A stretch of 64,000 nt of DNA from NCBI GenBank assembly GCA_028534125.1, contig CM052842.1, forward strand, positions 992,001-1,056,000, given 5' to 3'. Of the stretch, positions 2,664-63,722 are shown one piece after another. The position numbers were made by a program, and so were the translations under genes. Under the pieces are notes generated by a model. It saw nothing but the letters and a program-made list of their open reading frames with translations. It made no database searches and was not told the origin of the DNA. This stretch comes from Lama glama. Its lineage: Eukaryota. Within the stretch, counting starts at the first letter, position 1. Each line of letters starts with the position of its first letter.

Positions 2664-3295
2664 TTTTTTTATTGGGTAAAAATATACAACATATAAGTTG
2701 TCATATAAGCATTTTTAAGAGTCCAACTCAATGGCATTAAGTACATTCACAGTGTTGTGCAACGATTACCACTGTTTATTTAGGGAACTTTTTCCTCAAA
2801 CAGAAACTGTCCCCATTAAGCATTAATTCCTCATTTTTCCTTCCATCAGCCCTTGGTAACCTCTAATCTACTGTCTCTCTGTATATATTTGCCTATTCTA
2901 GACATCTCATGTAAGTGGAAGCTTACCATATTTGTCCTTTTGTGATTGGTTCATCTCACTTAGCATAGTGTTTTTGAGGGTCATCCACGCTGTAGCATGG
3001 GTCAGTACTACATTTCTTTTCAAGGCTAAATCCTGTTCCATTGTACGGATATAGACTGTTTATCCACTCATCCTCATGGACACTTGGGCTATTTCCACCC
3101 TTTGGCTATCGCGAATAACGCTTCATCCAAAACTGACGTACAAGTATGTTTGAGTCATTTTCTCACTTCTTCAGGAAATATGCCTGGAAGTGGAGTTGCT
3201 GGGTCAAACCGTAATTCTACTTTTAACTTTCTGAGGAGCCACCAGACCGTTCCCCACAGCGGCCATACAATTTTACACCCCTCAGCAGTGTACAG
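2664..3295 (-). mobile_element. Old L1 (L1M) 3' fragment: ORF2 C-terminus and 3' UTR
   Basis: Minus-strand peptide PLWGTVWWLLRKLKVELRFDPATPLPGIFPEE resembles the L1 ORF2p C-terminus; ggcattaagtacattcacagtgttgtgcaac is an L1M 3' UTR signature; T-tract at the left end. Confidence 0.85.
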
Positions 3296-3653
3296 GGGTT
3301 TACACACCTGTTTTTGTACCTGTTTCCACGAATAAACCAAAACATCTCACGTTTTCAGAGGTTAACAAGTCTCTGCAGGGCCTCCTCGTTCTGGGACGTC
3401 TCCTGTCCTGGCCCGCGCAACTGCAACAGAGCCCCTGGGGCCCTCGTGCCACCAGGCCGCCCCCGCGGAGCCCCCAGAACTTAACACTACGCGGAAGGAA
3501 CGGAGCTGCGGCGCGGGTGGAGTCTGGGGCTCGGTCCCCCGCACAGTTCTGCAAGGAACGAGAGCCCGTGGCGGAAAGGCGAGCCCAGCTCTCCAGGGCC
3601 GGAACCACCAGACGCAACGCCCCCTCCGCAGGCGCGGAGATGCGCCCTGCGGG

Positions 3654-3722
3654 CGCTCTGTAGTGATCGTACCCCCCGACCTTCGCTCTGCAGCGATCGT
3701 ACCCCCCCGACCTTCGCTCTGC
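3654..3722. repeat. ~30-bp tandem duplication in the promoter (about 2.3 copies)
   Basis: gatcgtaccccccgaccttcgctctgc at 3665-3691 recurs at 3695-3722 with one extra C; partial unit cgctctgtagt precedes it. Confidence 0.9.
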
Positions 3723-3928
3723 GCGTGCGTGGCCCCGCCTCCCCGGACCTTGCCAGGGAGACGGCGCAACTTCCATCCCTCCCCCATCATCCCCTGCAGC
3801 CGGGCAGTCGCCCGGGCCTCGCCGCAGTGCGCAGTCTCGGCTCCTCCCCCGCTCCGCCCCGCCCGCGGGGAAACGGTCGCTCGGCGATGACGTCGCGGGG
3901 GCCTGGCCGGGCGTCGCGGACTCCAGAG

Positions 3929-3974
3929 ATGGAGGAAAAGGAGCAATTACGGCGGCAGATCCGCCTCCTGCAGG
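3929..3974 (+). CDS. ZC3H3: ZC3H3 exon 1, coding part (MEEKEQLRRQIRLLQ-G)
   Basis: ATG at 3929 in strong Kozak context (gagATGG); donor CAGG|gtgggt at 3975; phase 1 fits exon 2. Confidence 0.95.
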
Positions 3975-9900: not shown

Positions 9901-12900
9901 GTTGAGTGTGGCAGGGTTGTAGCAGACAGGGCTGGGCCCTTTTTTCTCCCTTCCTGCCTCCCGGGGTGCTGTGTCCTGAGACAGGGCTGGGCGCTGAGGG
10001 GTTTGTGGGGTGACCCAGGCAGGCACACCCTGACCTCTTGCCGCATGTGAGCTGCTCTCCCAGCTTGGCGGAGCCTCGACCGTCCCTGCCGGGCCTGCGC
10101 AGCGTCTGCCGCCACGGAGCCTGGTCTGGGGGCCGACAGCTGAGACGGACTGTTGCCGTCCGTGTGGCGGACGCCCCCAAGGAAGGAGCACCACGTGGTA
10201 GAGGAGGTCGTTCTGTCTCACGGGCTGAGGGCTGGCTCGAGGAGCCCTCTCCAGATGGGGTGGGAGGCGGGTGACACCAGAAAGTCTCCAGGCAGAGCCA
10301 GACTTTCCTGTGGGGCTGGAGGGTGGTCCTGATTGCGGTCCACAGTCACCGGGAGGCAGGGCAGAATCTTCCTCTGGTGCGGCTGGGGGTAGGGGTGTGA
10401 GGGCTGCCTCGGGCACAGGAACATCCTGGCAGCAGCTTTGCTGCAGGAACCGCTGGCGGAGGGACCTCAGGGGAGCTGGGGAGCTGGGTGGGGGCCGTAG
10501 GGGCAGCGTCCTGGGCTTGTGGGCTGGGTGCATTCTAGGACAATCCCCTGGTTGCCAGGTGGATGGCAGAGGGGTGAGGGGCTGACCGGGACCAGACACT
10601 GGGCCTGTGGGTGTGCTGAGCAGGCCAGGTGGAGGAGGAGGGCACTTCCTCAGGCCCTGCTGGCTTGTGAACCGCCTGGTCCTTCTTCAGGCCCGGAGTG
10701 GAGTAGGGTGTAGGCTGGGGATGGTGGAGGCCGCCACTGCTGACAGGGCGGGTGCGCTGCTCTGTGGGCACCGTGGGGTGTGGGGTGTGGGGTAGGGGCT
10801 GCAGAGTCTACCGAGGGGGCTGACACAGTCCCTGTCTTCACATTTCTCTGCACTGGGAGGCAAATGAATAAGCTCGTAGTTATAGTTGAATGTGATAGCC
10901 ACGGAGAACGATGCACAGAAGCCCTGCGGGGGAAAGGTTTGGAGAAAGTTTCCACCCACCCATTCATCCTCCCCTCACGCACCCTCCATCCTCCATCCAT
11001 CCCCACCCTCCACCTGCCTGTTCTCAAGCCCACCCACCTGGCCTCCGTCCGTCCATCCCCTCCCCTCCCCCCACCTAGCCAAGGACAGTGTGTGGTGCAC
11101 CTCTGTGTGCAGGCAGTGTGCTGGCTCCTGGGGCACCGTGGGCGGTGGACGCAAATGCAGGTGCTTTAAAAGGTGGGAAAGTCGCTTTCTGGAGGCAGAA
11201 GCGCTCTGAGGAAGAGGAAGCAGGTGGCAGTATCGTGGGGGTGCTGCTGGGAAGTGGTCAGCTCTAGCCAGGCAGTTGGGGGCTTCTCCGAGGAGGGACA
11301 TCTTAACTGAGACCTGTGTGAGGAGAGGAGCGAGCAGGCACATCTGCGCAGGCAGGGGCACGGGTGGGCTGAGCACTGCCTTTTCCAGGGGCAGAGGGGT
11401 CCCGTGTGGCCGGCATCCCGGAGGGTGGGAGGGGCCAAGGCCAGAGGGCAGGTGGGACCAGAGGATGGGAAGGGTTATTCAGTGTTGTAGGTCTTGGGGT
11501 AAGGGAGTGAGGCCTTCCTGCCCTCCCTTGGTGGGCTCGAGCAGCTCTGTGTGCTTGTTGGGCTGTCTGTCCACATCGCCCAAGGTCGTGCTCTCCTGCC
11601 TCCTGGAAAGTGCAGACCCGAGCTAGGGCCTCCCTGGGAATGGGCGCAGGGAGCTTGGGTGGCCTCCTCACTGAGTAGCCTTGAGGCCTCTCATCCTGTT
11701 TCCTCACCCAAACTCGTAGTGCCAGGTGCCCCTCCTCTTTGAGCAAGGTCAGAGTTGACCCCTGTGGGCTCCTGCACTTCTGGGGATGGAGATGAGAGGG
11801 ACGGGTGGGGAGAGATGGGCTTCCCCCTTCAGCCCCGCTGTGCTTCTCAGTGGCCAGCAGAGGGCGCGCTTGCCCCTCTTATCCCTCATCCACCTTTTTC
11901 TGGTAATTGATTGCCTAATTTCCTCTTTATGTGAAAGANNNNNNNNNNNNNNNNNNNNNNNNNNNNNNNNNNNNNNNNNNNNNNNNNNNNNNNNNNNNNN
12001 NNNNNNNNNNNNNNNNNNNNNNNNNNNNNNNNNNNNNNNNNNNNNNNNNNNNNNNNNNNNNNNNNNNNNNNNNNNNNNNNNNNNNNNNNNNNNNNNNNNN
12101 NNTCTCCCTTGAGTTACCATTGCAGTGTAATTGCTGCGTTCAATCNNNNNNNNNNNNNNNNNNNNNNNNNNNNNNNNNNNNNNNNNNNNNNNNNNNNNNN
12201 NNNNNNNNNNNNNNNNNNNNNNNNNNNNNNNNNNNNNNNNNNNNNNNNNNNNNNNNNNNNNNNNNNNNNNNNNNNNNNNNNNNNNNNNNNNNNCAGCTCT
12301 GCCACTATATTGCTCAGCAGATAAGGGGACTAATAAAAAGAAAATTGAATTACTAATGATCACCAGGAACAGAGTATATAAAACCTGGCAATCGCCGGTT
12401 CAGGAAAAGGGAGAATCAATTTTCTTGGGACAAGGTGCGCTCATTTTTTATTTTGGCGCATATTATCAGCAGTTTAATTTGAGAGCGCAGAAACAGGAGG
12501 CAGCAGTTAGGGAATGACGAGCCTGGAGGTGTAAAGTGCCGCAGGGTGTATGCTGTACACAGTTTATTTGGCACAACAGATAATCGCTTTAATTGAACTC
12601 AAACCTGCATTGTTCAGCAGGCCTGCGGCCGCTGGTGCCTTGGGGACTGAGCATTGTGGAGATTCCAGCCCGACTCCTCTTGCTTTCCCTCCCCTACCTC
12701 TACCCTCGCCTCCACTCTCTGGTCCAGCCCTCTGACCCTCCCGCCTAGTTCCCTGGGCCTAGAGTCAGGCTTCGGCTGAGGGGGTGGGGCGGGTGTCCCT
12801 GGGGGGGGGGCCACAGGGTCTCCCCCTCTGCCGCCACAGGTCTTTCTGTCCTCCTTTTCATCCTAGGGTGGTCAGGAGCCAGGACCCTGAAGAGAGCAGG

Positions 12901-15900
12901 TGGGAGGAAGGAGGCAGGCTTCCTGTGGTAGGGAAGGGAGGACGCAGGACCAGGGCTGAGTGGCTCCGTGGTGTCCCCACCCTGCCCAGTGCTCCAGTCT
13001 GGGGCTCCCGAAGTGCTGGGGGCCCTGCTCTGAGCCTCCAGGCTGGTGCTGGCATTGCCGTGTTCCGTTTCCACGTCTGGGTGGGGGTCAAGGGTCATCT
13101 CCTGGGCATGGCTGTGTGGGTTGAGGGGGTGGGCGGGCAGGCAGGCGCTTAGGGTGGGCTTAGCGGGTGCTAGCCTGGGTGGCGCCTCTTGTCTCCGCCG
13201 CTCTTCTCGCTGCTGGAGTTCCCCGCTGTGGCGTGCTCGCTGGATGCGGGGAAGGACGTGAGAGCGGTTCAGTCTGGACCGTGCTTCCTAAGGGGAAATA
13301 GAGGGGCTGCCGTCTGCCCTGTGAGAGGCAGACGCGGCCGGCTCGAGCCTGGCATGGACTGTTCGGCCTGTCTTTTACGTCTGTCGTGGCCTTGCCAATG
13401 AATTATTCCACAAGGGCGGCGTGGGAGTGCGTGTGCCCGTCAGGTGCAGCTGGCTCAGAGCCTCGGGTTGGAGAGGGGGGCTACTGCGTCCTTCCCCGGC
13501 CTACCCACCGACTCCTGGCCTGGAAGGAGAGGTGACGTTCTCACGGTGTGGAGCACCTTCTCGCAGGCCTGGATCCCTAGGTTGGGGGCACCTTGGGCTG
13601 GTCTGAGTGGCACGAAGGAGTGGAGCGCCTGACCTGCAGCCTCTCCAGCCCCGGGGGCCGTTTTGAGACCCCAGCCCCTTTGGCCTCACCAGTCTGGCTG
13701 TGAGGCAGGACTTCGTGCGCTGCATCTCCACCGCCTCCTGTCACCTCTGTCCTCCTGGTCTCTGTTGCGCCCTGCATTGCTGCAGAGGAGGTGCCCGGTG
13801 AGCTCTGATCCATGCCTGATCCTGGAGAAGGAGGGGAAGGACACAACTTAAATTTGTTCTGGGCTCTGAGCTTGAGGTGACTGCTTCCTGGAGGTGGCAA
13901 GTGAGGCTGGGGAGGCTCGGGCCTCCCCTACTGTGGGCAGCGGTCTGCACCCGGCTGTGGGCCTGTGCACCCTTGTGTGGCCTTCAGAGCCACACCTCCG
14001 GGGTGTCCAGCCACTAGGCTGTGTGCAGATGCTGGGCATCACCTCTGAAGTGGGGAAGGGGTGGGAGGGAGCCTGGCATTCCCAGGCAGGGATGGCTGGC
14101 GCAGGGGCTGCTGTGACCAAGGACATCCAGATGGTTGAGGAGGCGGGCCTGGGAAGGGGCGCGGAGGCCAGCACTGCCCATCCAGGAGTCTGCCCCGTCC
14201 CTCAGTGAGAATCTGGTGCAGACTGATGGCCAGGCTGGCTGCTGTGTCTGTGTCCTGAGTGACAGAACCCCAGCGGGTTGTCCAGGAGCTAAGCAAGCCG
14301 GGCACGGAGACCCGGTGCCAGCTGCAGGGAGGTGCCCAGCTGGTAGGCAGCCTTGAACTGTGCTGGGTGACTGTGGCCTCAGCAGGCAGTTGGCCTCTCT
14401 GCCTCTCTTTCCTCCTCTGCAGGACAGGCTGATGACAGCCCTCTGCCCTGACTTTGAAACACCCTGGGAACATGCCCGAGCCAGGGCAGCCAGGCCATCA
14501 CTCAGGGACATGAGTCCTGGGGATGGCGCTGGGAGCTGCCTGGGAGGCAGGACCTGTGTCGGCCTGACCACCCTGGGTGGATCTCCTTCCTGCTGGGACA
14601 GCTGGGCAGGGGAGGAAGACCAGGCAGGCCATGGCAGGGGTGTCCCCAGGGTGGACCTTCTGGTCCAGGCTTCTGGGGAGGAGCAGTAGCTAAGATGGGA
14701 GAGGATGGCCGTCCTGTGGCCCGTCCCCTCCTGTCGGCTCTGCCACCTGAGGGTCCTTTCAGGGATTGCTCTGAGGCTGCGTCTTTGGTGCCCGGCCCTG
14801 TGGGAGGAGCAGGTGAGACACCGTCACTCCCCAGGGACCGTCACGGGGACCCCTGTCCCTCTCACCTCAGCCTGGGCCTGTGCCAGAGCCAGCAAGGATG
14901 CAATGGACCCTCCCTCCAAGACCGAGAGCCAGTGGTTTGGGCCAGAGTGGCTCTCCCTTGTTTCTCTGTTTGCGTGGAGCCTGGGGCCCCAAGGTGGGCA
15001 GCAGGCCTTGGGCCCAGAGGTGGCATCTCCAAAAGGAACTACAGAATCATGTTTCCCCAGGGAGCTCTGTTTAGACCAGCTCTCCCTACTCCCTGCAACT
15101 TAAAGGAAGAAGGTGCCAGGTGTGGTGGGGGTCTGTTGTCCGCATCTGGCTCAGGCTGCTGCCCCCACACGGTTGTCCACTCGGCTGGTGAGGGCAGGGC
15201 AGCAGGTGGAGGCATTACAGGGCCACATTGCCTTCCTGCTGCCCTGGACACGGGGCCGGCTGGTGTGTGCACGCTCGAGTCTGGGTCCTGAGTCAGTGCC
15301 CCAAAGGGCGACGAGGGGCACAGGCAGCCTGGGAGCGGGGGCCGGGGCGGGGGCTGCCCTTCAGGGTCAGAGCTGCCTGTGCGGGCCAGTGGGCCTGAGA
15401 TCAGACTGAGCACACAGGACGCCCGTTGTCCTTCAGGCTTTCCTATTTTCTAAAATATGCAGGTAAAAGGTTATAAGTTCCTACCTGAGCATAGCTTTAG
15501 CTGTCTTCTGCAAGTTAATTGTTTATGTTTTTCTCCGAAGTTTTTCTAGTTTTCATTTCGAGTTTTTCTTTGATCGAGGGTTATTCAGAAAGGGGTGCTT
15601 CATTTCCAATGCCCTGGGGATTGCGTGCCATCTGTGTGATTTCAGTCCTTTGAAGTCTGCCCAGACTTGTTTTAAGGCCCAGCTTAGGGTCAGTTTTGGT
15701 AAAGCTCTCGTGTCCACTTGGAAGGAATGATGCCGGTTGGTGAGTGTGGGGCTCTGTGAGGAAAATGGTGTTAATTGTGTTGTTCACACCTTCTGTATGT
15801 GCACTGATTTGATGGGCCGGGAGGGAGTCTGTTTTCCCCACAGTCATGGGGAGGCAGTGCAGAATCTTCCTCTGTGCCAGTGAATGTGTTCATTTCTCCA

Positions 15901-18900
15901 GCTGTCGCTCTTACATTAAATATTTTGAGGTCGCTTAACTGTGTGCAGACCGTTTAGAGTTGTTATATCTCTCTGGTGGATTGAATCTTTTACTGTTGTG
16001 AAATGTCCTCTTTTATCTCCAGTAACACTTCTTGCCTTGAAGTCCTCTTTCTCTGACATGAGTACAGCTACACTGGGAGTGTTGCAGAATGTGCGTGTGC
16101 ACACGTGCGCTCACACGCCATGCAAATGTTACGTGGCGCGTGGGAACGCGTGTACGGTCAGCCTTCCTGTAGTACGGCTATGGTTTTGGGGGGTTTTTTT
16201 TGTATCCAGCAAGTAGGTGGTTCTTAAGTACAGTTTGAGATTGTCTTTCTTTCGTTTTTTTTTTTAATAAGCAAAGGATTTTATTAGTAAAGCAAAAGTC
16301 AGTACACCTTTGAGAAGTGAAGGTGGTTCAACCCAAGAGTTAAAAATGGCCTGCGTTTGTCTGTCTAAGAGATTTTGCCTATTCACACGTGATGCAGCGA
16401 TCGATGTACTTGGGTTTAAACATGCATACTGCTGTGTGCTTTCGCTTTGTTCCACCTGTTCTGCTTTTTTCTCTTCTTTTTTTTTGTTTTTCTTGTTTTG
16501 GGTGTATTTTTATTGCATTTTCTCAGTTAGCTTATAATGCATTTTTTTATTCCTCTCCGCAGTGGTCTCCACAGAGGTGGTAGTGTGCATCCTCGACTCA
16601 CTGTTTCTGGACTTAGTAATGATCGTCTGACCCTCCGCTGACAGTGGGAGGAGCTCGGAGTCCCCAGGCCCCACTCTCCTCTCTTCCCTCGACACGAGCA
16701 CGGGAACTGTTGTGATGTTAACTCTGTGTGTCCTAGACCTTGCAAGCGCAGTGTGCAGTGGACTCGTCCATGTGTTTACTGCGCCACCCCTCTCCGTCCC
16801 TTCCTCTCCTGCGTTTGGGAACATGTCTTCATGTTTCCTTGGTGTCGCAGGGGTGCTGGGGACCATTGCTTTCCATAGATGTTTCCCTGAGACATCTGTG
16901 TCGCCGCTCTCTGCAGAGTGTCTTAGTTGGGAGCCGCTGGGGAGAGACTGTCCCGTGGTAGCCGGTGACGGGCCCCCGCCCTGGTCTGCGCGGGGCTTTG
17001 TCTGTCCCTGGTCTCCAGCAGTTGTGCTCCGGGCGCCTCCTGCAGGCTTCACTTACCCTGCCTGCAGTCGCCATACTGTATGGATTTGCGGCTTATCAAT
17101 TTTCGTCAAATTTGGAAAATTCCCAGCCATTCTGTCTCCAAGCATGGCCTCTGCTCCATCCCCACCTCTCCTCCTGCGATCTCTGCTGCGTCTGCACCGA
17201 ACCTTTTCACCGTATCTTACATGTTTTCTGTGCTCTTTCCTGTGTCTTCTGTGACTTTTCTCTCCAGGCTTAAATCTGGACAGTTTCCTCCTACCTGTTC
17301 TCAAGATTACTTATTGTCTGTCCAGTTTTGTATAATCTGTTGTTAAATCCATCCATTGAGGTCTTAGTTTTAGTTATTTTTAAGTTCTGAGATTTTCATT
17401 ATTTGTCCTTTAAAATGGTTACTGGGTCTCTGCCGAAATCTGCAGTCTTGTCTTTGAGTTCTTGAACGCATAATCATTTTTGAAGTCCCTGTCTGACCGC
17501 TCAGTTATCTGGGTCGCTGTTCATCCCATTGCCTGGCTTTTCCCTTCTTAGTTTTGGGTTAAGTGTGATTTGCTTGTGTGTCTGGTTATTTTGTATCGTG
17601 TGGCAGAAGTTGTGTATGGAATTCGGGAGATAACTTGTGGCTGGATGATGTCACCTTCCCCCAGACAGGGTGCGCAGTCCCTGGGAAGACAGACCTGCAG
17701 AGTCAGGGCAGTGTGGGGAGTGAGAAGGCCCAGGCAGGTCCCTGGGGGCTGTGTCTTGCCCAGGGAGGGGCTCTGCCAGGGTGGTTCTAGGTAGGCTGAC
17801 GGAACACCAGGAGGGCTGCTGACCCTGGCTGTCCTTTGACAGTGTTGCCCAAGATGCAGGTCTGTGCGGGAGGGTGATTGAAGGGCAGTGGGAGCCCCCT
17901 CCACCCAGCCCTGCATAGAGGCCCACTTTCCCCCCGCCCCCTGTGTGATTGGTTGGGAAGGAAGGGTGGCTCCTTGCGATCCCCAGTGACCTGTGCATTG
18001 GGGGAAAGGAGGGGCTCACTGACCCGTGGCCTCTGAGAGGTCTCTGGGTGTAATGTCAACAGGACAGCCTGTGGGCCTGTGGATGGTGGCCTTATTCCTG
18101 CAGGCTTCTCCCTGCCCTTGCTCCAGGCCTGGAGAGGACTCTGGCAGCCATGCTGCATCAGGATACCAAGCCTGGGGGAGGGCCTTGGCGGTGGAGGCCA
18201 GGTGGGGCCCAGGGTGCACCCTGCCTGGGGCGGAGTTGCTAAGTGGAGGTGAGGGACAGCCGAGGTGGCAGTGTTTGTGCTGACAGGGCCCTTGGGGGCC
18301 CCAGGGAGAGCCTCAGACTTTCACGTTGGCCGTAGGCAGTGGGCCTGGTGCACAGGGTGCTCAGGGAGCGGCGAAGTGTCTCTGGTTTAGCGCGGACCTC
18401 GTGTGGGGCTGACTGCCTCAGGGCACCCTCCTCTTGGCCCTTGAGGGCAGGACCACCTTGGCAGGGGGAGCTCTGCTGGTTTGTGCGGGCTGTTGATCCT
18501 GGCACTGGGCAAAGAGCAGGACCTGGTGACACCAGCACCCAGCTCTGTGTACCTGAGGTCCCCTGTCCCCTTGTGGGGTGACTGGAAGGGTCGTGGGCTC
18601 CAGGACACGGAGGCAGGAAGGGCTTGCTGCCCTAGAGCCAGCCGGCAGGTGGGCAGTGGACAATGGTGCACTTGCTTGGAGCCTCCAGGGCTGTGTCCCT
18701 TGGGTTGTCCCCCCATCCCATGTCTTCATGAGAGCGTGTTGGCCCGGATGGAGCCCACTCAAGACAGGCACCGAGGATGGGCCTCCCCTGGGGTCTGAGC
18801 TGAGACCCTCTGCTTCCCATCCTGCTGGGGCCCCCGCTGATTGCTCTGCCGATGGAGGGGCACTAGAGCTTTGGGCTCAGCTGTCCCGGAAAGCGTGGGC

Positions 18901-54900: not shown

Positions 54901-57900
54901 GGCCCAGGGGCAGGGATTTTTGGGTGGGAAAGGAGATGGATTGGTTGGTCCCAGTTAACCATGAGAATAATCAACGATGTCTCAAGAAAGAAGTGTCACC
55001 TGGGATGTAATTTTAGCCATGAGAACAAATTGCGGAAGGCTGTGATTAATGAGGCCACTTCTCTTGGGTGGGAGGTGGCAGCCCCAGACTGAGGCTCCTC
55101 TGTGCGCAGAGCTGTGGGACCAGAACACCCTCTGCCCTGAAGCTTCCAGTTCCTTTGGACCTGAAGCCCTGCCAGCCTCTACCCCGCTGGGCCCTCCCTA
55201 CACTGGGCCACCTCTGCAGGGAGGGAGGGGGCTGTCCCAGTCCGGCTTCAGCAAGGAGCACATGCCCATAGGCCCAGGGCTTTCTCAACCCTTGAGAGGC
55301 TGGGCTCTGGGGCATCCAGGGCCCCGCTTCCTCCTTCCCACCTTCTCAAGGGCGTCCTGCCGCCCGTCTCTCATATATCCTAGTAGCCAGCGCCGTGGGA
55401 GGAGGGAAGGGTGGGTAGGAATGGTGGCCCAGGAAAAGCAGGGGAGGCTCCTGCGCAAGAAGAGGCAGCTGAGAGGGTCCTTTTTCCCACCCAGTGTGTC
55501 CCATTGTCTGGATCCCAAATCTGCTGGGAGGTACGGGAGCTGCCCCGAGTGGCCACTCTGCAATGAGCACCGAGCTCAGCAAGAAGCCGGTGCTGCGAGT
55601 TGACCCTGGGTGCCCAGGTGGGCTTGCCACTGGCCCCCTAACAGTGCCTCAGCCCAGGCTGGCTTATGAGAGGACAGCTGCCTCGAGGGTGGGGAGACCA
55701 CTGAAGGCTCTGAGCAGCACGGGGCTGAGGCTGTCAGGGGCCTGTCAGCCTTGGGCCGAGCAAGCTGTGGTGACCACTGGCCTGGGCTCAGCTCTCAGCC
55801 ATGGGGATCAGGACTCAGGGCAAGCTGTGCCTTTCAGACAGTAGCCACAGCTCCTGCAGAGGGTCCAGAGTCCCCAAGGCTGACAAGGTTCTGCAGAGTG
55901 GGGAGGAGACCCCACTCAGCCTTGGTGTGAGCCCAGGGGACAGGGTGCCCTGGACACCCTGACGCCAGCGTGGGGCCCCAAGGACTGACGAGAGCCCTGG
56001 GGTTCTGGCTGCCTCCCCCAGAGGATGTCCACCCCACCTGGCCCTCCTGCCTAGACGTTCCTTGTGTGGGGGCAGCCGGAGCCTGTCTGGCATGGCCAGC
56101 ATGGATCGGGCCGCTGAGGACCCTTGGTGGGAGTTGTTCCCTCCAAGATTGGTGTTTGTGAACGTGTTTTAATTAAGGGAAACTGGGTCAAGTGCTTTCA
56201 GGCGGCCGCCTTGGCTCTTCCTGCCTGAGGAAGGTCCCCAGTGCCTGGCACACTCGCACAGTTGCTCCTTGTGAGCTGGTGAGAATTACCCCTCACCTTG
56301 CAGGTGGAGAGACGGAAGCCTAGAGGGGCTGCTGGGCTGAGTGGTGGGCCTTGGCGGCTGCTGCCATCTGCCTGGGCCAGCCTGTGCGCCAGGGTACCCC
56401 GAGGCCTGCCCTGTCCTGCCTGGACTCATCGGACCCGGTCTGGGGTGTCCCTCCCTGGCCCTGTGCAGCCAGGTGGAGTTGGGGTCCATAAGCTCCCAGG
56501 GGAAGGGACTGCAGGGCATGGGGCCTCAGGGGGAGCACACTGGAGGACCCCGGAGGGAGGGGGCTGTGTGTGCTCCCAGATGAGCCCTGACTTCAGCCGG
56601 CTCCTCTACTGGGCCCTGAGCGGCCCCTGGTGGCACTGCCTGCCCAAGGGCCGCTGTCTTCACACCCTGCCCCTCCCGCTGCTTGGGCCACTTTCAGGCA
56701 GAGATGATGCTCATGGAGATAGCAGGTGCTCGTTTGCCCAGATTTGCCAGTTGGGCCTGAATGTACACTCACTAAGTGGTGATAGCGGTGTGAGCAGAGT
56801 TGAGCTGATTCGGAAGTAAGCTCAATTTGCATAAACATATTACTGCTGAAATGCACCCTGAGGGCTGAGGCCATATCCTTCCGGAGTCCTAAGGTCCCAG
56901 GCAGCAGGAAGGCCCTGACCCTTCGTGGCAGCTGGGGGAGCAAGTTGGCCAGGGCATCTGCAGGCCCACAGTCTGTGAGGCCTGAGCCAGGGGTCCTGGG
57001 ACCGCTGCCCACCGCAGCCATGGTGTCTGTGGGGGGATCTCTGTCTGAGGGAAGTACTGGTGCCTTCTCACAATCCGCTCTGCTCTTGTGTTTCCTGGGG
57101 GGATGTGTGCGTCTGGCAGGATGGGGCCCAGGGCCAGGAGGGAGAAGAACGAGGAGGGAAGGAGTCAGCAGGTGGCTGTCAGGGCCGTGTGGCTGGCCCC
57201 AGGTCTGCACTTCTGGCCTGGGCATCTGCTCAGGTAACCCCCACAGGCAGCCCGGGTCTCTGCAGCCTTGGCCCTTGAGGCAACTCCAGTCTTTTTCCGC
57301 AGACAGCTTGCCTGGGTGGGGATCCGTAAGGTTCCCATCCCCTTCCTGGGCTCTGCATGCAGTGGAAGGAGGGGTGGGGCAGGGTGGGCAGTGGAGTTCT
57401 CTGGCTCCACAGCGCCGTGGTCCCAAAGCCAGGGTGGCGTGAGTTGGGGCAGCATCCGGGAAGAGAAGCCCCTGGGCAGTGGTGGTGGCTGCTGGCCTCG
57501 GCATGGACCCTCGAGGCCGCCTCAGCATGGGTGCTGGGCCTTTCCCCTCACAGCAGAGCTCTCTCGAAGCCCCCCATGGGAGGCCAGGGCCCGGCGGTCA
57601 TGTCCCAAGGGTGTGCCTGTTGGGGGGGGGCACCTTGTCCCCTGTCTGGGGCCTTTCAGGGGCTCACACGGTCCCAGCCTAGCTGGTGGGGTTGAGGGTG
57701 CCACCTCCTGTGACAGTGGGGTCAGAGGACAGAGGCCCTGGGGCTGGGCTGATGAGCACGTCCCTGTCTCTGCAGGTCCTTGGTGCTGAACCGTCTGCGT
57801 CCGGCTGCAGCGGGCGGAAAAGCCCAGACTGGCTCTCCTCGGTGGCGGAGCAAAGGCTACCGCTGCATCGGAGGGATCCTCTACAAGGTGTCGGCCAACA

Positions 57901-60900
57901 AACTCTCCAAGACCTGCGGCCGGCCCAGTGGTGACGGGGGCAGCAGGCCCCTCCTGCGCACAGGTGAGGCTCCTGGGTGGGGGCTGCGTGGTGCGCAATT
58001 GCTCCAGGCTTGCCGCCGTCCAAGGCTGTGGACCTGGTGCTCTCTGGGAGCCGATCCGAGTGAGGGCTTCCCTGGGCGTCAGGAGTTGCCCCTAACGAGG
58101 CTGGCTGCAGCCACCATGGGGAAGCCCCCCAGGGACAGCCGGGCGCATGCCTCTCAGTTGGCTGAGCCACCTCTGATTTTCCATGTTTGCTCCTGGACAA
58201 AGGAGATGAGCCAGGTACAGTGAACATGGCCTGGGCAAGCAAACACCTGGGGCCGCAGCTCCTGATCGCATTGGCAATGCCTCCCAGCTGTGTCTGGAGG
58301 CGCCGCCGCTGCCACACGCACCTCTGGGCCTGGGGAGGCAGGCGGAGGAGAAGGAAATGCTTTGGATTCGCTTATTGTACACATTAACTAGAAAAATATT
58401 TTGGTTTCAATCCATTTTTACTCCCATTTCTTTAAAAAAAAAAAAAGGTGAGGTTGCAGGCAGTGACTGTGGGGATTGCATGGGCCCAGCTGCCCTCAGC
58501 CCCCACCCCACCGCCACAGGGCAGGAGAGGGGAGGTGGGCACAGGGCCAGCTCTGCAGGGAGGCAGCCAGAATGCCCCTTCCGGAAGCCCTGCACTGCCC
58601 TCCCAGGGCCTCTGTCTGTGGGCCCGCGTACCCCGTGGCCCTCTTCTGGGCCCGGTGCACCAGATGCACCAGGCTCCCCAGGACAGGCTCTGTTCCGCCC
58701 CCAGATGCGTGCTTCCCACCTCTTCCTTGAGGTGATGGGCCTCGTGGCCTCTCAGAGCACTCTGCCTTGGCCTCGTGAGCTTGCCTGGTAGAGGAGCAGG
58801 TGCGGAGCACAGGCCAGGCTTCCTCAGGAGCCTTGGTGGGATTCAGCCCCAAGGGGCTAGCACCATACATCAGAGAACAGCCCTCCCTCTGCTCCCGGTG
58901 GGCCTCTAGCCTCAGCACACATGGTCTCTGGGGCCCCACGTGATCTCAGACCCCTCCTCTGTCCCTTGCCTCTTCCTGGACGAAGCAGAGCCCCTTCCAG
59001 CCTGCTGCTCCCCCTGAACCAGGTCCCTCACAGAGCTGCCCTGGCCAAGCTGCTGTGTGGGGTGGACAGAGCCATGGGCACCGGGGACCCCATCTGGTTG
59101 AGTCCACAAGGGGCTGGCAGCAGCCACTCTGCAGAGTGACCTCCTGGTTGGTCCCAAGTGACCAAGCCTCTCTGTGGGTCCTACCCTCTGGCCACAGCTA
59201 CCCTCCAGCCAGCTGTGGGGTGGGGGGTGCTCTTTGGCAAAGGGCACACCCAGCACCCACTGTCATTGTCCTATGCATCGTCCCCACTCCTCCTGCCCCC
59301 TTCTGAGCTGGCAGGCAGGACCCGGGCTCCACTCCCTGCTGTGGTCCCCAGACGCTGGACAGACAGGCTGTGGTTTGGAGCTGTCATGGCCCTCGCAGGG
59401 GTCTTGCTGCACGTGAGCCCGACCTCAGACGGGCTGGTGGGCCTGTGAGTGGGGCTACACCTACCACCTGGGCCCCTCACATCCACGTGGCAGGAGAGGC
59501 TGAGGGGCAGAAGCAGGTTTGGACTCAGCCTCCTCACAGATACCGAGTGGCCCCTTGTTAGAGCCTCCTGGGCACTGAGTCTGAGCGGAGGGGCCTGCAT
59601 CAGGGGCTGTGGGGGTGCCTCCTTTCTCCCCAGCGTGGCACCCCCACCTGCGCTGGCAGCCAGTGGGGAGGGAGCTGTTGCTCTCACTGGGGAGGACACC
59701 ATGCTGATCCCGCTCCCCTCCCAGGGCTGAGCTCCGCAGAACCCCGCCTCTGCTTAGAGGAGCGCAGCGGTGGCGTCTGGGCCTTCCCACTCCTATTCCC
59801 CCAGGCCCCCGGTTTCTGGGCAGTCAGATGAGGACAGAGGCCTCCAGGGACAGGGCAGGTGGGATCCCAGTAGGCCTCCTCCCTGCTGACCTGCCCCTGC
59901 AGGCCACCCATCTGACAAGCCTGCTGGCTGCTGAGAGGCAGCCCTGGGGCTCAGCCTTCCCACCTCGGTGTGGGGGCAGGGAGGTGGGGTCTGGAGCACA
60001 CCCCACAGGGCAGCTGGTCTTGGGGGCACGAGGCAGGGCCAACACAGCACCAGCTGCCTGGGCCCCAGTGCGGGTGGCCGACTGTCTGCAAGGAAGGTGG
60101 ATTGCTCCCGGCTGTGGGAATGCCTGCTGACCAGCAGCCCACTTAGATGAGTAATAATTAAAGAAATAAATTTTCTTCTCTGGTGTCAACAGAACTTTGA
60201 CTTCAGCAAGAAAGTGCAGCCCTCCTTGGGAGGGGGCAGGGGCTCCACCTCCCCTCCTCCTGGCTGCCCGTCTACGCTGGGCAGCTAATGCTCTGAGGCA
60301 GCATCAGCCCCTAGCTGGACCCTCAAGCCGTCCCAGGCTTTGTAGGGAAGAGAGGGGCAGAGCCTTGTCCCTGCTCATCTCCTGGCCCCCCAGCCCCAGG
60401 GGCAGGGCCTTCCTGCAGGCTGACCTCAGCCCCCTGAAACCCAGGGCTAGGTACTTCTCCCGGGTCTAAGGCCTGCCTGTGCAGCCTGGGACTCCTCCCC
60501 ACGTGCTTTGGCCTGGGACCTGGGGATACCCAGCGCAGGCTCGGACGGCTGCTCCACGGGTCTGGCATGTATCTCGACCCCGAGAGCCTGCCAGTCCCTG
60601 TGGTGGAACAAGGGCCCTGAATCCACCTGCCAGGGCCGCCTCCCTCAGCCTGGGCTGCCAGGCTGGCCCCTGGGCTTGTTCTGAGCCCCAGGTCCCAGAC
60701 TGATGCAGACTAGGCTGTGGTGGGCAGCCTCCCTGCTATTGACCTGCCACTGAGCGCCCCTGGGCAGGTAGTGGAGCTCTGTACCTCATCTGTGACCTGT
60801 GATCAGTGACCTGCGACCCCTCCCTAGGTTCTGTGTATTCAGTCTCACAGAACTGCATGTGAGAGGGCCCTGGCAGTCCGTCTGGGGCCTGCCTCCCTCC

Positions 60901-63722
60901 CGTCTAGACACCTCTTCCTGGGACTCCCTCTGTGCCAGGAAGCACCCAGTTTCAGTCTTCTTCCCAAGAGTGCATATGCCGGGCCACCTTGAGAGGTGGG
61001 GGCTACAGGAGCCCCCGACTCTCAGGGAGCAGCCAACCGCCTGGGCCGGGTGGGCGTTCTAGGGGGCTGCCTAGCTGGCTGTGTGTATTCCAGGAAGATC
61101 CCTGGGAAGTGCAGCTCCAGAAGGCTCTGAGGCCCCGTTTTCAGCTAAACTTTTTAGCGCCTCTCAAAGCCTCCACGGTCTCCTTTCAAGCCAGCTACTT
61201 TATGTGCATTTTTTAACACCGCAACACCGCAAAGCATTTGAAAAGGTGTCTCCTGTTCTTGTAAAAATTCCCACTACGAGCCCCACACTGGCATTTTTAT
61301 AAGAGCAAAAGTGCAAAGGGGAGTAAACCTGCCCTCCCCCCCAGAGGCCAGGCCTCGGGGCTGGTCTGACAGGCAGACACGTGATGACAGCGGTCCCTGG
61401 CGGGAGCAGGTGGCACCGCAACATCACGGCAGCCTGGGTGACAGCCCGGGGAGCCACGCTGACTGGCAGCTGTCAGACTGCTCTCTGTCACCCTCAGGCT
61501 GGCAGGTGCAGGGACACCACGTGCCATCTGGTCTGGCCACTCCTGCCAGCCACCCCCAGGATGGGTGTCCCCAGCCTAGAAACCAGACTTAAGTATGTCC
61601 TGGATTCTCCCTAAGACCACTTCCCACCGGCCCCTCACACCTTGAGACCCCTCTCTCCCCTCTGTGTCGCCATGTCCCCCTCCCCTGTTCACACACCATA
61701 CCAGCCCCACTCAGATCTCAGCCACCTGGGCCTAGGCCGCCGTGGAGGACACTTCCCTCCTGTTGGGGGTCTCACTGCTCAGGCCTGGAGCCACCTTTTT
61801 TTAACTTGAGGAGACTGAGGCTCAGAAAAGGGCAGGCCCTGGCTGGAGGGGCACCTCTAGCAGGGCCTTGAGGGCTGGCCTGGGAAGGGCACAGGGAGCA
61901 TCCGGGGGTGGTCAGGGCTTAGCAGAGGGTGGGAGGTGGAGAAGGGTGTCCAACGGCCCAGCCCCTGAGGCACAGAAGGGTTTGGGTGTGGACGGGCCGA
62001 GTAAAGTGTCGGGACATTTGTGTGACTGGGTGTTGGGCTCGGGATGGGCCCAAGATGAGCGGGCCCAGGGACAGCCAGGGAGGGGCTTGCAGGTGGCAGG
62101 AGGGCTGCCTGCCCAGGCTTCCCATGTGGCTCCAGTGGGAGTGGCTCAGAGCCAGGCAGCTTGGGGACGTCCCTTTTTAAACTTGGGATGCTTTATCATG
62201 GCCGCAGGTCACTAGAATTTCTGAGTGATGTCACTTGTGCCCCAGCCACCAGATCCATTTCAGCAGCTGCCTGTGGGAATCGGATCTGGTCTGGGAAGGG
62301 TCACACGTGTGTCTGAGGCACTGCGGAGCCTCTGTGGCTATTCTGAGCCGGCTCTCGCCTGCCCCACCCACCCTGGTCCTAGGCAGGAGCCTGGCATCTA
62401 AAAGGCAGGTGGGGCCGTGTGCCAGTCTGGACACCCCTCTGCAGGGCGGACTCCCAGTGCACACAACAGTGCCCCGCCTGGCCCGCGGCTCCAGCTCCGG
62501 GCCCCAGCTGCCCTGGCTGGGCAGTCACCTGCTCCCTCTCGGTCACCCTGGACCACTTCCTGAACAGCTCTCCTTCGGGCTGCAGCAGTGGTGTCAGAGA
62601 GGCCTTGTCTGGTCCACGCATGTGGGGCTCTGAGGAGCGTCTCACAAGGTGCCTCTGGCATCGTGAGGACCGGGCACCTGCCGGGGCTTGGGGCCACACG
62701 TGCTCATCGGGGCCTGTGCAGGCCGTGGTTGGCACACAGCTCTCTAGGGCCTGGGAGTCAGGATTTCAGGATTTACAACCATATACTTCTTTTTTCTTTT
62801 TATTTTACAACCCTTTGAATAAGCCATTCTTAGCTACTGCAAAGCCAGGTGGCATTCCCAGGCCCCGCTCAGGCCCACGTGTCCCTGGGTTCTGCTCCAG
62901 GCAGAGGGAGGCCCCACCACCCACTGTTCTGGGACCACCTGCCTTGAGGCAAAACCAGTGTGGCCTTGGGGAGCTGTGCCACCAGACCTGGTCCCTGCTC
63001 CTTGTCCCCGTGCCCATGTCTGCCGTCTCGCCTTGGCCTCCCACCAGCACGGGGTGGAGGGTGGCCCCGCAGCTTTCTGTCCTCCAGCACTGCATCCCCA
63101 GAGGGGCCTGGCAGGGCCTAGGAGGGCGAGCTGTTTCCTGGAGGGGGCAGCAGCGCCTGAGCTGAGGGTGGGGATCCCGAGGGGGCCGGTGCCACGCGGG
63201 AGGGCAGGGAGAGGACAGAGCCGGGGTGGGAGGCCTGGCGTGACCGGCCTTCTTCCCACAGGTCGGCTGGACCCTGCCAGCAGCTGCAGCCGCTCCCTGG
63301 CCAGGTACGTCCCTCAGGGTTGGATTGGGGGGGGGGGCCTCCCCATCCTCCCCTTCCTCCCTGGGGCTCATGAACCTCTGCCCCATCCCCAGCCGGGCCG
63401 TCCAGCGCAGCCTGGCCATTGTGCGGCAGGCGCGGCAGAAGAGGCGGAAGAGAAAGGAGTACTGCATGTACTACAACCGCTTCGGCAGGTGCAACCGCGG
63501 CGAGCGCTGCCCCTACATCCACGACCCCGAGAAGGTGGCCGTGTGCACCAGGTGCCCCCTGCCCCTGCCTCGGCCGTTGTGGGGGGCGCGCTGGCGTGGG
63601 TCTCGGGTCTCCCCAGGCGTCCCCACTCTCTCTGACCCTCCCCTTGGCGCAGGTTTGTCCGAGGCACGTGCAAGAAGACAGATGGGACCTGCCCCTTCTC
63701 CCACCATGTCTCCAAGGAGAAG
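3929..63722 (+). CDS. ZC3H3: Zinc finger CCCH-type containing 3, exons 1-8 of a spliced CDS, 3' end beyond the window
   Basis: Eight exons join in frame (46+1300+200+154+188+43+159+70 = 2160 nt) with GT-AG boundaries. The translation MEEKEQLRRQIRLLQGLIDDYK...KEYCMYYNRFGRCNRGERCPYIHDPEKVAVCTRFVRGTCKKTDGTCPFSHHVSKEK matches mammalian ZC3H3 as I recall it. Confidence 0.97.
5442..6741 (+). CDS. ZC3H3: ZC3H3 exon 2 (1300 nt; S/P/R-rich low-complexity region)
   Basis: Acceptor tttctctcttctcag|GTCTGATTGAC; open frame LIDDYKNLHG...RKKYSLVNRP...RKNNYKWVA...KSRTKIIRRRGGA, same frame as ORF 5624..6781; donor GG|gtatgt at 6742. Confidence 0.96.
8000..8199 (+). CDS. ZC3H3: ZC3H3 exon 3
   Basis: Acceptor tgtttctgcag|C; LPGDKKSSPPPAAAAKSQFSLRRRQALRGKSSPILKKTPNKGLMQVTRHRLC...AKE; donor AAG|gtacga. 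Confidence 0.95.
10945..11140 (-). mobile_element. Probable L2 3' end with degenerate (CCAT/CCAC)n tail
   Basis: ccacccattcatcc...ccatccatcc followed by tgcacctctgtgtgcaggcagtgtgctgg, like the reverse L2 terminus. Confidence 0.4.
11851..11869 (+). promoter_or_regulatory. Candidate CTCF site
   Basis: TGGCCAGCAGAGGGCGC fully fits the CTCF core CCASYAGRKGGCRC with the TGG 5' flank. Motif match only. Confidence 0.55.
11895..12610. promoter_or_regulatory. AT-rich TAAT-dense island, candidate conserved enhancer (contains N-runs 11939-12102 and 12146-12293)
   Basis: Abrupt AT-rich block with many TAAT/ATTA cores (gtaattga, ctaatt, gaattactaatga, ttaattt, ttaattga); no recognisable repeat or ORF. 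Confidence 0.55.
15440..17640 (-). mobile_element. Decayed L1: ORF1 and ORF2 endonuclease region
   Basis: Minus-strand peptides VAVLMSEKEDFKARSVTGDKRGHFTTVKDSIHQRDITTLN and HESFTKTDPKLGLKTSL resemble the L1 endonuclease; MAGNFPNLTK resembles the ORF1p ENFPNL motif. Confidence 0.85.
16251..16356 (-). mobile_element. Short polyadenylated retro-insert nested in L1, with 10-bp target-site duplication
   Basis: T11 at 16255-16265; TTTATT (AATAAA on minus strand) at 16280-16285; flanks ttgtctttct (16241-16250) and ttgtctgtct (16357-16366). Confidence 0.7.
22697..22739 (+). mobile_element. L2 3' terminal fragment
   Basis: cagcacacagtgggctcaccgaatgtctgttgaatgactga resembles the L2 end ...ctcaataaatatttgttgaatgaatga. 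Confidence 0.5.
24576..24611. repeat. 36-bp perfect alternating purine-pyrimidine tract (TG/CG/CA)
   Basis: cgtgtatgtgtgtgcatgtgcgtgtgtgtgcgcacg read directly. Confidence 0.85.
26380..26590 (+). mobile_element. Very decayed L1 ORF2 5' fragment in sense orientation
   Basis: taaatgtacgtgaactacatgctttaattaaa...ttatcagactgga...tgtgctgcttttaaatac resembles the start of L1 ORF2. Confidence 0.5.
27398..27459. repeat. Degenerate (TG/CA) repeat with three gtgcacatg units
   Basis: gtgtgtgtgcacatgcacac...atgtgcacatgcc...gtgtgcacatgt. Confidence 0.7.
30540..30860. promoter_or_regulatory. AT-rich TAAT-dense island, candidate conserved enhancer
   Basis: tttaattag, gctaatga, gattagtcattag, gtaatga, gaattaaa, palindrome tatttaaata; retained CpGs. 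Confidence 0.5.
32071..32125 (-). mobile_element. L2 3' terminal fragment
   Basis: attcaattcaacaaacatttatttattga...ctgtatgctggg is the reverse complement of the L2 end. Confidence 0.6.
33290..33515. promoter_or_regulatory. AT-rich TAAT-dense island upstream of exon 4
   Basis: ttaattat, caattag, ttaattgcat, gattaag and two TCAGCA motifs. Confidence 0.45.
33862..34015 (+). CDS. ZC3H3: ZC3H3 exon 4
   Basis: Acceptor tttccctgcag|CC; SSLHGLRPPPSSKVIKTRYRIVKKNP...SWRARRLSLS; donor CAG|gtagga. Not represented in the ORF track. Confidence 0.95.
34930..35275. promoter_or_regulatory. AT-rich island (contains N-run 35113-35252)
   Basis: Very AT-rich non-repeat sequence: agattaatttta, gataattt, atattaattca, ctaat. 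Confidence 0.5.
37880..38150 (-). mobile_element. MLT1-type LTR remnant
   Basis: tttctcacggtctgcaggctgggagtctgaggtcagggtgctggcagg and gagtttggggggacacagccttcagtcc are MLT1 hallmarks. Confidence 0.75.
41150..41870 (-). mobile_element. Decayed L1 3' fragment
   Basis: Minus-strand peptide KRSTSLVIRE resembles ORF2p KRCSTSLIIRE; L1M 3' UTR-like sequence at 41155-41260. Confidence 0.65.
42486..42688. other. N-run, 203 nt
   Basis: Undetermined or masked bases; left flank gtaaaaggtaatgtg. Confidence 0.99.
46112..46323. other. N-run, 212 nt
   Basis: Undetermined or masked bases; left flank ggtttaatttgcggt. Confidence 0.99.
46900..47640 (-). mobile_element. Decayed L1 ORF2 fragment
   Basis: T-rich block with ttttacatttaaa...acctggaatttattt and gttgtctcaggaccatttatta, typical antisense L1M ORF2 sequence. 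Confidence 0.65.
47695..48020 (+). mobile_element. MLT1-type LTR remnant
   Basis: tgggctgaat...gtctttgcagaggtgatcaaggttaaataaggtcatt...accttggtcttgaacttgcagcctccggaactgggaga follows the MLT1 LTR layout. Confidence 0.8.
48331..48365. repeat. (CAAA)n/(CGAA)n microsatellite
   Basis: aaaacacacaaacaaacaaacaaacgaacgaacaa. Confidence 0.8.
48400..48700 (-). mobile_element. Decayed L1 ORF2 fragment
   Basis: tttgtcttatttaaga...cctaccccaaggtca...tttcttctaga...tcacatttaagcct resembles antisense L1M. Confidence 0.55.
50513..50660. other. N-run, 148 nt
   Basis: Undetermined or masked bases; left flank gctaacatacgaaacaccgatagcttca. Confidence 0.99.
53985..54470. promoter_or_regulatory. Long AT-rich TAAT-dense island, candidate conserved enhancer
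   Basis: gataattt, ggattag, ccattac, cattat, ttaata, gttaatga, gaattac, cattaattt, ccattag within ~480 bp; ungapped. Confidence 0.5.
57776..57963 (+). CDS. ZC3H3: ZC3H3 exon 5
   Basis: Acceptor ccctgtctctgcag|G; SLVLNRLRP...WRSKGYRCIGGILYKVSANKLSKT...RPLLRT; donor CAG|gtgagg. Confidence 0.95.
61785..61840 (-). mobile_element. MIR core fragment
   Basis: ttttaacttgaggagactgaggctcagaaaag resembles ttttacagatgaggaaactgaggctcagagag. Confidence 0.5.
63262..63304 (+). CDS. ZC3H3: ZC3H3 exon 6 (43 nt)
   Basis: Acceptor ccttcttcccacag|GT; RLDPASSCSRSLA; donor CAG|gtacgt. Confidence 0.93.
63393..63551 (+). CDS. ZC3H3: ZC3H3 exon 7: basic stretch and CCCH finger 1 (C-X8-C-X5-C-X3-H)
   Basis: Acceptor ccccatccccag|C; RAVQRSLAIVRQARQKRRKRKEYCMYYNRFGRCNRGERCPYIHDPEKVAVCT; donor CAG|gtgccc. 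Confidence 0.96.
63653..63722 (+). CDS. ZC3H3: ZC3H3 exon 8: completes CCCH finger 2 (C-X7-C-X6-C-X3-H)
   Basis: Acceptor ccccttggcgcag|G; FVRGTCKKTDGTCPFSHHVSKEK; donor AAG|gtgagc. Confidence 0.95.

What the first reader, a model, noticed from the sequence alone, without database searches (positions are those of the whole stretch)
11895..61320. Array of homeobox-motif islands in ZC3H3 introns: probable long-range regulatory block for neighbouring MAFA
Seen: against a strongly GC-rich background, a dozen or more sharply bounded AT-rich islands, most rich in TAAT/ATTA, that match no L1/L2/MIR/LTR pattern I recognise (about 11895-12610, 19610-19740, 30540-30860, 33290-33515, 34930-35275, 37370-37760, 42430-42860, 45100-45280, 53985-54470, 54940-55050, 58350-58450, 60140-60200, 61140-61320). 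They lie in introns 3-5, while exons 6-8 are packed with 88- and 101-nt introns. Knowledge: from memory, human 8q24.3 has the order GSDMD-ZC3H3-MAFA with MAFA just 3' of ZC3H3, and developmental transcription factors often keep enhancer arrays in the introns of a housekeeping bystander gene. Inference: these islands resisted GC drift through purifying selection and act as enhancers of MAFA rather than of ZC3H3.
Basis: partly seen in the sequence, partly recalled or inferred. Interest (0 to 1): 0.7.

Follow-up and report, generated by a model that had tools for sequence, protein, structure and literature searches.

The report
MAFA enhancer array inside ZC3H3 introns
Short AT-rich patches in the introns of the housekeeping gene ZC3H3 are likely control switches for the neighbouring insulin-cell regulator MAFA, an arrangement already catalogued in humans, so this is an ordinary new-species example and the individual patches remain untested.

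Summary
This camelid ZC3H3 has sharp, single-copy AT-rich islands in introns 3-5. MAFA lies 7 kb past ZC3H3 on the same strand. The published mouse MafA Region 3 enhancer probe maps into ZC3H3's last intron, inside an island of the same kind. Mouse islet super-enhancer peaks are reported 30-38 kb upstream of Mafa. TAAT clusters continue 3' of MAFA, which argues for DNA-level action rather than ZC3H3 RNA processing. Not shown: cross-species conservation or MAFA targeting of any island inside the window. ZC3H3 is itself 3.5-fold higher in beta than alpha cells, so 'MAFA rather than ZC3H3' is too absolute. The scan had not noted this before. Verdict: known block, low interest.

The parts
3887..3974 (+). 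ZC3H3 exon 1 (coding part), in a CpG island
   Evidence: tblastn of P0001; donor GT at 3975; CpG o/e 0.90 in 3001-4000
5442..6741 (+). ZC3H3 exon 2
   Evidence: 100% identical to a Vicugna pacos ZC3H3 protein; ends
8000..8199 (+). ZC3H3 exon 3
11895..12610 (.). AT/TAAT island, intron 3 (partly N); candidate MAFA enhancer
   Evidence: GC 0.41 visible; TAAT/ATTA 10 vs 5.3, p 0.021; single copy
15394..17665 (.). AT-rich block with interspersed-repeat matches; negative control, not part of the array
   Evidence: many matches elsewhere in the genome; TAAT below expectation
19610..19740 (.). TAAT island, intron 3; candidate enhancer
   Evidence: 4 vs 1.0, p 0.006; single copy
30540..30860 (.). AT/TAAT island, intron 3; candidate enhancer
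   Evidence: 9 vs 4.0, p 0.012; no match elsewhere
33290..33515 (.). AT/TAAT island, intron 3; candidate enhancer
   Evidence: 6 vs 2.5, p 0.016; no match elsewhere
33862..34015 (+). ZC3H3 exon 4
34930..35275 (.). Strongly AT-rich island, intron 4 (partly N); TAAT no more than its composition predicts
   Evidence: GC 0.29 visible; 6 vs 5.6; no match elsewhere
37370..37760 (.). AT/TAAT island, intron 4; candidate enhancer; a repeat fragment follows at about 37870-38150
   Evidence: 5 vs 2.0, p 0.044
42430..42860 (.). Weak island, intron 4 (partly N); not clearly AT-rich in the visible part
   Evidence: GC 0.57; 2 vs 0.9; single copy
45100..45280 (.). AT-rich, TAAT-poor island, intron 4; unexplained
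   Evidence: 1 vs 2.8; single copy
46859..48695 (.). AT-rich block with interspersed-repeat matches; negative control
53985..54470 (.). Largest fully visible AT/TAAT island, intron 4; candidate enhancer, 37 kb from the MAFA ATG
   Evidence: 11 vs 5.2, p 0.017; no match elsewhere
54940..55050 (.). TAAT island, intron 4
   Evidence: 4 vs 1.1, p 0.012
57776..57963 (+). ZC3H3 exon 5
58350..58450 (.). AT-rich patch ending in an A run, intron 5; TAAT-poor; weakest candidate
   Evidence: 1 vs 1.9; sequence
60140..60200 (.). Short TAAT island, intron 5; borderline
   Evidence: 3 vs 0.9, p 0.058
61140..61320 (.). AT-rich island without TAAT, intron 5; roughly where a human beta-cell T2D methylation region projects
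   Evidence: 0 vs 0.9; proportional projection 61031-61359 of the region, approximate
63262..63722 (+). ZC3H3 exons 6-8 with 88- and 101-nt introns (63305-63392, 63552-63652); exon 6 start by codon arithmetic, approximate

Best explanation
The TAAT-rich islands are likely conserved non-coding enhancer elements of the already catalogued MAFA genomic regulatory block, with ZC3H3 as the host (bystander) gene. Shown here: they are single-copy, sharply bounded, enriched in homeodomain core motifs on both strands equally, and such clusters surround MAFA on both sides. Shown in the literature and mapped here: one island of this kind, in ZC3H3's last intron, is MafA Region 3, where Isl-1 binds a TAAT that the reporter activity needs. 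Inferred: the islands in introns 3-5 bind homeodomain factors, loop 30-80 kb to the MAFA CpG-island promoter, and keep their AT content because selection on binding sites resists the local GC drift. Those nearest exons 5-8 would be the islet super-enhancer peaks; the distal ones would serve other MAFA-expressing tissues.
For: (1) MAFA ORF at window-equivalent 91803-92882 (G000:C27:1,083,803), same strand, 7.1 kb past the ZC3H3 poly(A) signal at 84687. (2) Akalin 2009 supplement: MAFA target, block hg18 chr8:144,528,864-144,731,628, ENSG00000014164 bystander (that id is ZC3H3); targets were defined as TFs under an HCNE density peak in human:zebrafish synteny. (3) Positive control: the mouse Region 3 Isl-1 probe matches 25 of 30 nt at 83110, TAAT intact, next-best match 20 of 30 in 224 kb; Region 3 projects to 82814-83182 and my GC-only caller had marked 82818-83168. 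(4) The human last intron holds a region overlapping peaks in four islet TF-binding columns. (5) 34 GC-called segments from intron 3 to MAFA: TAAT/ATTA 103 vs 59.0, rank 1 of 136 4-mers; 32 upstream segments of equal GC: 41 vs 40.9, rank 49; repeat-bearing blocks 75 vs 93.7. TAATTA 14 in 7,668 nt vs 2 in 6,517; TAAT[TG][AG] 40 vs 7, p 1e-5. (6) 13 of 15 TAAT clusters in GC-rich context fall between intron 3 and the BRO1-domain gene, 5 of them 3' of MAFA (p 0.015 against eligible bins; the zone was drawn after seeing the data). (7) AT-richness, sharp edges and TAATTA are the described signature of vertebrate CNEs (PMC5728398). (8) Mouse SE1-SE4 at -30 to -38 kb carry ATAC, H3K27ac and beta-cell TFs (PMC13049674).
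Against: No island inside the window was aligned to another species, so conservation is borrowed from the block-level listing. Only 7 of 13 islands are individually TAAT-enriched, and Region 3 itself is not significant alone (5 vs 2.8, 138 of 1000 shuffles). ZC3H3 is 3.5-fold higher in beta than alpha cells (727 vs 209; MAFA 3438 vs 34), so the bystander is not deaf, or its counts include enhancer transcripts. MAFA and ZC3H3 gave 0 hits in the four supplementary files held for Harmston 2017 (I did not check whether these files hold gene names). SE1-SE4 have no coordinates in the passages I saw and the supplement was unreadable, so their match to specific islands is unproven. Other motif classes tried (MEIS, MEF2, POU, SOX, FOX, E-box) showed no clear excess.
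Confidence: 0.75

Rival explanations
1. The islands are shared enhancers or general chromatin elements that act on both MAFA and ZC3H3 (and perhaps the gasdermin gene), so the target/bystander split is only quantitative.
For: ZC3H3 is 3.5-fold higher in beta than alpha cells, adjusted p 6e-28; the intron 3 islands are 8-30 kb from the ZC3H3 promoter but 58-79 kb from MAFA.
Against: MAFA changes about 100-fold in the same data; clusters flank MAFA on both sides and are nearly absent upstream of ZC3H3 (1 in 64 kb).
Confidence: 0.12
2. The islands are neutral remnants of old AT-rich repeats or slow-drifting patches in a GC-rich subtelomeric isochore.
For: Short AT segments are equally common upstream (32 vs 34); five islands have no TAAT excess; the genome search misses very old or very common repeats (tool caveat).
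Against: No island matched elsewhere while neighbouring repeat blocks did; repeat blocks are TAAT-depleted (ratio 0.80) and islands enriched (1.75); an island of the same kind is a proven enhancer. Plausible only for the motif-poor subset (45100, 58350).
Confidence: 0.08
3. The islands are RNA-level elements of the ZC3H3 pre-mRNA (poison exons, intronic poly(A) sites or structured RNAs) used for autoregulation of this nuclear RNA-decay factor.
For: ZC3H3 is named in PAXT/exosome papers (search listing only; its PAXT role is recalled); 6 sense AATAAA lie in the 33 intronic segments.
Against: No Rfam match in 64 kb; TAAT 52 vs ATTA 50 and AATAAA 6 sense vs 16 antisense; no island holds both a consensus acceptor and donor in a simple scan; like islands occur outside the transcription unit, 3' of MAFA. 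No RNA reads were examined.
Confidence: 0.05

Closest known systems
MAFA genomic regulatory block (Akalin et al. 2009, PMC2688929, supplementary target and bystander sheets)
   Same: Same locus, same target and same bystander; the human block spans all of ZC3H3.
   Different: The paper lists the block only; I saw no element-level map or function for introns 3-5. Here the species is a camelid and the elements were seen by composition, not alignment.
MafA Region 3 beta-cell enhancer (-8118 to -7750; PMC2731519, PMC9033020)
   Same: AT/TAAT island of about 350 nt in a ZC3H3 intron, recovered by the same caller; bound by homeodomain factors.
   Different: It lies outside the window in intron 11, 8.7 kb from the MAFA ATG; the window's islands are 30-80 kb away and untested.
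Mouse Mafa SE1-SE4 (PMC13049674)
   Same: Cluster of ATAC/H3K27ac/beta-cell TF peaks 30-38 kb upstream of Mafa, a distance that falls inside ZC3H3 in this genome.
   Different: No coordinates seen, no functional test of SE1-4 in the passages read, and one-to-one orthology with these islands is not established.
WWOX-MAF block (PMC2745767)
   Same: Paralogous large-Maf gene regulated by HCNEs in a neighbouring bystander gene.
   Different: Megabase scale and gene-poor; the MAFA block is about 0.2 Mb in a gene-dense GC-rich region, which is why its elements stand out by eye.

Membership tests
Genomic regulatory block (GRB) | Target is a developmental transcription factor with a long CpG island | tested here: met
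   Single-ORF MAFA; CpG o/e 0.83-0.98 across 91-94 kb window-equivalent; feature as defined in PMC2745767.
Genomic regulatory block (GRB) | Conserved synteny of target and bystander | tested here: met
   Camelid order gasdermin, ZC3H3, MAFA, BRO1-domain gene; ZC3H3 adjacent to MAFA in human; human:zebrafish synteny is taken from PMC2688929, not retested.
Genomic regulatory block (GRB) | [quoted passage not shown] | not testable with these tools
   No non-camelid genomic DNA could be aligned; the block-level HCNE peak is from the paper.
Genomic regulatory block (GRB) | Bystander unresponsive to the elements | tested here: inconclusive
   Published table: ZC3H3 3.5-fold, MAFA about 100-fold higher in beta than alpha cells.
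Vertebrate conserved non-coding element (sequence signature) | AT-rich with sharp compositional borders | tested here: met
   12 of 13 islands; signature per PMC5728398.
Vertebrate conserved non-coding element (sequence signature) | TAATTA/TAAT enrichment | tested here: met
   As a set 103 vs 59 with a null control region; individually 7 of 13.
MAFA enhancer | Drives or is needed for MAFA transcription | not testable with these tools
   Shown in print only for Region 3, outside the window.
Interspersed repeat | Similar copies elsewhere in the genome | tested here: not met
   0 of 13 islands matched elsewhere; control repeat blocks did; limited sensitivity for very old repeats.
Known structured RNA (Rfam) | Match at gathering score | tested here: not met
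   0 matches in 64,000 nt against 4227 families.

The most novel reading that the evidence does not exclude
The distal islands in introns 3-4 (37-80 kb upstream) and the matching islands between MAFA and the BRO1-domain gene are an unmapped set of tissue-specific MAFA enhancers beyond the islet Region 3; the host ZC3H3 is co-driven by them in beta cells; and four of the six textbook 'MafA promoter conserved regions' (R1, R2, R4, R5) are simply the last ZC3H3 exons and poly(A) site, which would explain why only R3 works as an enhancer.
Probability: 0.45. Interest if true: 0.4.

Novelty: already known. Interest (0 to 1): 0.22.

Why it matters
MAFA sets beta-cell maturity and falls in type 2 diabetes, so its distal enhancers are places to look for non-coding variants, and deletions or edits of ZC3H3 could disturb MAFA as a side effect. 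The block itself has been listed since 2009, so the gain here is a short list of candidate elements and the reminder that the classical MafA 'promoter' regions lie inside ZC3H3.

Tried and rejected
Cross-species conservation from public reads: the one run search (Hi-C libraries, window 29900-33800) listed 2 runs, neither shown to hold the stretch, and no reads were laid, so conservation of the window's islands stays open. Raum 2006 and 2010 were not held, so Region 3 is cited through PMC2731519 and PMC9033020. Supplements of UCNEbase and PMC13049674 and one large file of PMC13121032 (MOESM6) could not be read; they may hold element coordinates in ZC3H3. Tandem repeats: 2 rows, neither in an island. 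Rfam: none. Hidden ORFs: the list of 116 ORFs of 150 aa or more gave no reason to read the islands as coding; these ORFs were not searched against families. Other motif classes showed no clear excess over control, except modest GATA (22 vs 8) and Maf half-site (12 vs 5) counts that were not tested. A number search for the R1-R5 coordinates returned only the review already read as relevant. Earlier scan notes: none on this locus.

Full report
Locus. Exon 2 of the gene in the window translates to a protein 100% identical to Vicugna pacos ZC3H3 and 97% to camels, so this is a South American camelid. tblastn with five full-length relatives (of 120 listed) and splice-site inspection place exons 1-8 in the window and exons 9-12 beyond it. 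I fetched 80 kb on each side; positions beyond 64,000 are window-equivalent (add 992,000 for G000:C27). The ZC3H3 poly(A) signal is at 84687 and a single-ORF MAFA starts at 91803 on the same strand in a CpG island. A gasdermin gene lies 4-5 kb before the window on the minus strand and a BRO1-domain gene at about 130 kb on the minus strand; the names GSDMD and RHPN1 for these are recalled, not returned by a call.

Observation. The 13 islands are in introns 3-5 and the 88- and 101-nt introns are exact. Twelve are clearly AT-rich with sharp edges. Low-GC segments number 28 in 49,496 nt against 3.0 (max 9) in 100 Markov simulations. From intron 3 to MAFA, 34 segments hold 103 TAAT/ATTA against 59.0 expected (0 of 1000 shuffles; rank 1 of 136 4-mers). 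The 32 upstream segments, of the same GC, hold 41 against 40.9 (rank 49). The 22 segments 3' of MAFA hold 39 against 27.5 (12 of 1000). The 8 repeat-bearing segments hold 75 against 93.7. Three islands are partly N; those bases were excluded and not interpreted.

Not repeats, not known RNAs. Own-genome searches covering 8200-64000 found multi-copy matches in the blocks at 15.6-17.5 and 47.1-48.6 kb and in a few small fragments, and none in any of the 13 islands. Searches scored only 39 of 82 and 39 of 183 candidates, so I repeated those ranges without the repeat blocks. The tool skips very common words, so old decayed repeats remain possible for the motif-poor islands. Rfam gave 0 matches. Motifs are strand-symmetric (TAAT 52, ATTA 50) and AATAAA is commoner antisense (6 vs 16) in 33 intronic segments, which argues against intronic polyadenylation. 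TAAT clusters in GC-rich context fall 8 between intron 3 and MAFA, 5 between MAFA and 128 kb, and 2 in the remaining 104 kb; the zone was chosen after seeing the data, so the p of 0.015 is descriptive. The array is therefore centred on MAFA rather than bounded by the ZC3H3 transcript.

Positive control. PMC2731519 (passages) gives the Isl-1 probe at -7822 to -7793 in mouse MafA Region 3 and shows that its TAAT is needed for reporter activity. The probe matches the camelid at 83110 with 25 of 30 bases (next best 20 of 30), inside ZC3H3's last intron (about 82596-84291). Anchored there, Region 3 projects to 82814-83182, and the caller had independently marked 82818-83168. In human, supplementary rows of PMC13121032 place a 706-nt methylation region in a 1,953-nt ZC3H3 intron next to the gene's 3' end, overlapping peaks in four TF-binding columns (I did not see which factors); it projects to 82710-83322. 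So at least one AT/TAAT island in a ZC3H3 intron is a proven MafA enhancer. It is outside the window.

What is known. The supplement of PMC2688929 (rows seen; methods passage) lists MAFA as target of a block at hg18 chr8:144,528,864-144,731,628 and ENSG00000014164 as a bystander; that id is ZC3H3. PMC13049674 (passages) reports four ATAC/H3K27ac/beta-cell-TF regions 30-38 kb upstream of mouse Mafa; in this genome the islands 53985-61320 are 30-38 kb from the ATG, but mouse distances differ and no coordinates were visible. A beta-cell T2D methylation region in a 6,738-nt human intron, which I take by size and order to be intron 5, projects proportionally to 61031-61359, over the TAAT-free island 61140-61320; this is a rough projection. 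PMC5728398 (passages) states that vertebrate CNEs are AT-rich, sharply bordered and TAATTA-rich. PMC2745767 (passages) defines blocks and treats WWOX-MAF. PMC9033020 (passages) gives R1-R6. PMC8137853, PMC13359618, PMC9101179 and bioRxiv 10.64898/2026.05.29.728759 (passages) added nothing on these introns. Harmston 2017's four held supplement files had 0 hits. Searches (mostly listings only) showed no functional test of elements in ZC3H3 introns 3-5; subscription papers, including both Raum papers, were not available.

Against the reading. No island in the window was aligned to another species, so purifying selection is inferred. ZC3H3 is 3.5-fold higher in beta than alpha cells against about 100-fold for MAFA, so strict exclusivity is doubtful. 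Region 3 alone does not pass the motif test, which shows that the test is weak per element in both directions.

Mechanism and verdict. Most likely (0.75) the TAAT-rich islands are homeodomain-bound enhancer elements that loop to MAFA and lock it to its host gene; shared action on both genes (0.12), neutral remnants (0.08, higher for the motif-poor islands) and RNA-level ZC3H3 autoregulation (0.05) are the rivals. It works like, and by synteny is, the published MAFA block; element-level membership as HCNEs was not testable. Already known; interest 0.22.

Noticed in passing
L005-L006, window-equivalent 81430-84900 (G000:C27:1,073,430-1,076,900): Projected without indels from the Region 3 probe, mouse MafA 'promoter' regions fall on ZC3H3 features: R1 (196 nt) overlaps exon 10 (185 nt), R2 the 3' end of exon 11, R4 exon 12 and R5 the poly(A) region (R4-to-R5 spacing 405 nt vs exon 12-to-AATAAA 395 nt). 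They may be conserved because they are ZC3H3 exons. I could not read the original papers to see whether this was noted.
   Followed up: partly
L007-L010, window-equivalent 99.6, 102.8, 104.8, 112.7, 120.5, 125.1 kb: TAAT-rich islands continue 3' of MAFA up to the BRO1-domain gene; candidate downstream MAFA enhancers.
   Followed up: partly
L004-L005, window-equivalent 64394-64731, 66633-67076, 78305-80332: Further AT/TAAT islands in ZC3H3 introns 8 and 9, just beyond the window.
   Followed up: no
L004-L005, window-equivalent 69800-75600: A 5.8-kb AT-rich, TAAT-poor block in intron 9, probably a LINE-type insertion (not searched).
   Followed up: no
window 63248-63304 vs G000:C2:49576648-49576704: A 57-nt, 86% match to the exon 6 region elsewhere in the genome; chance or a small processed fragment.
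   Followed up: no
window 3654-3722: 2.3 copies of a 31-nt unit in the ZC3H3 promoter CpG island.
   Followed up: no
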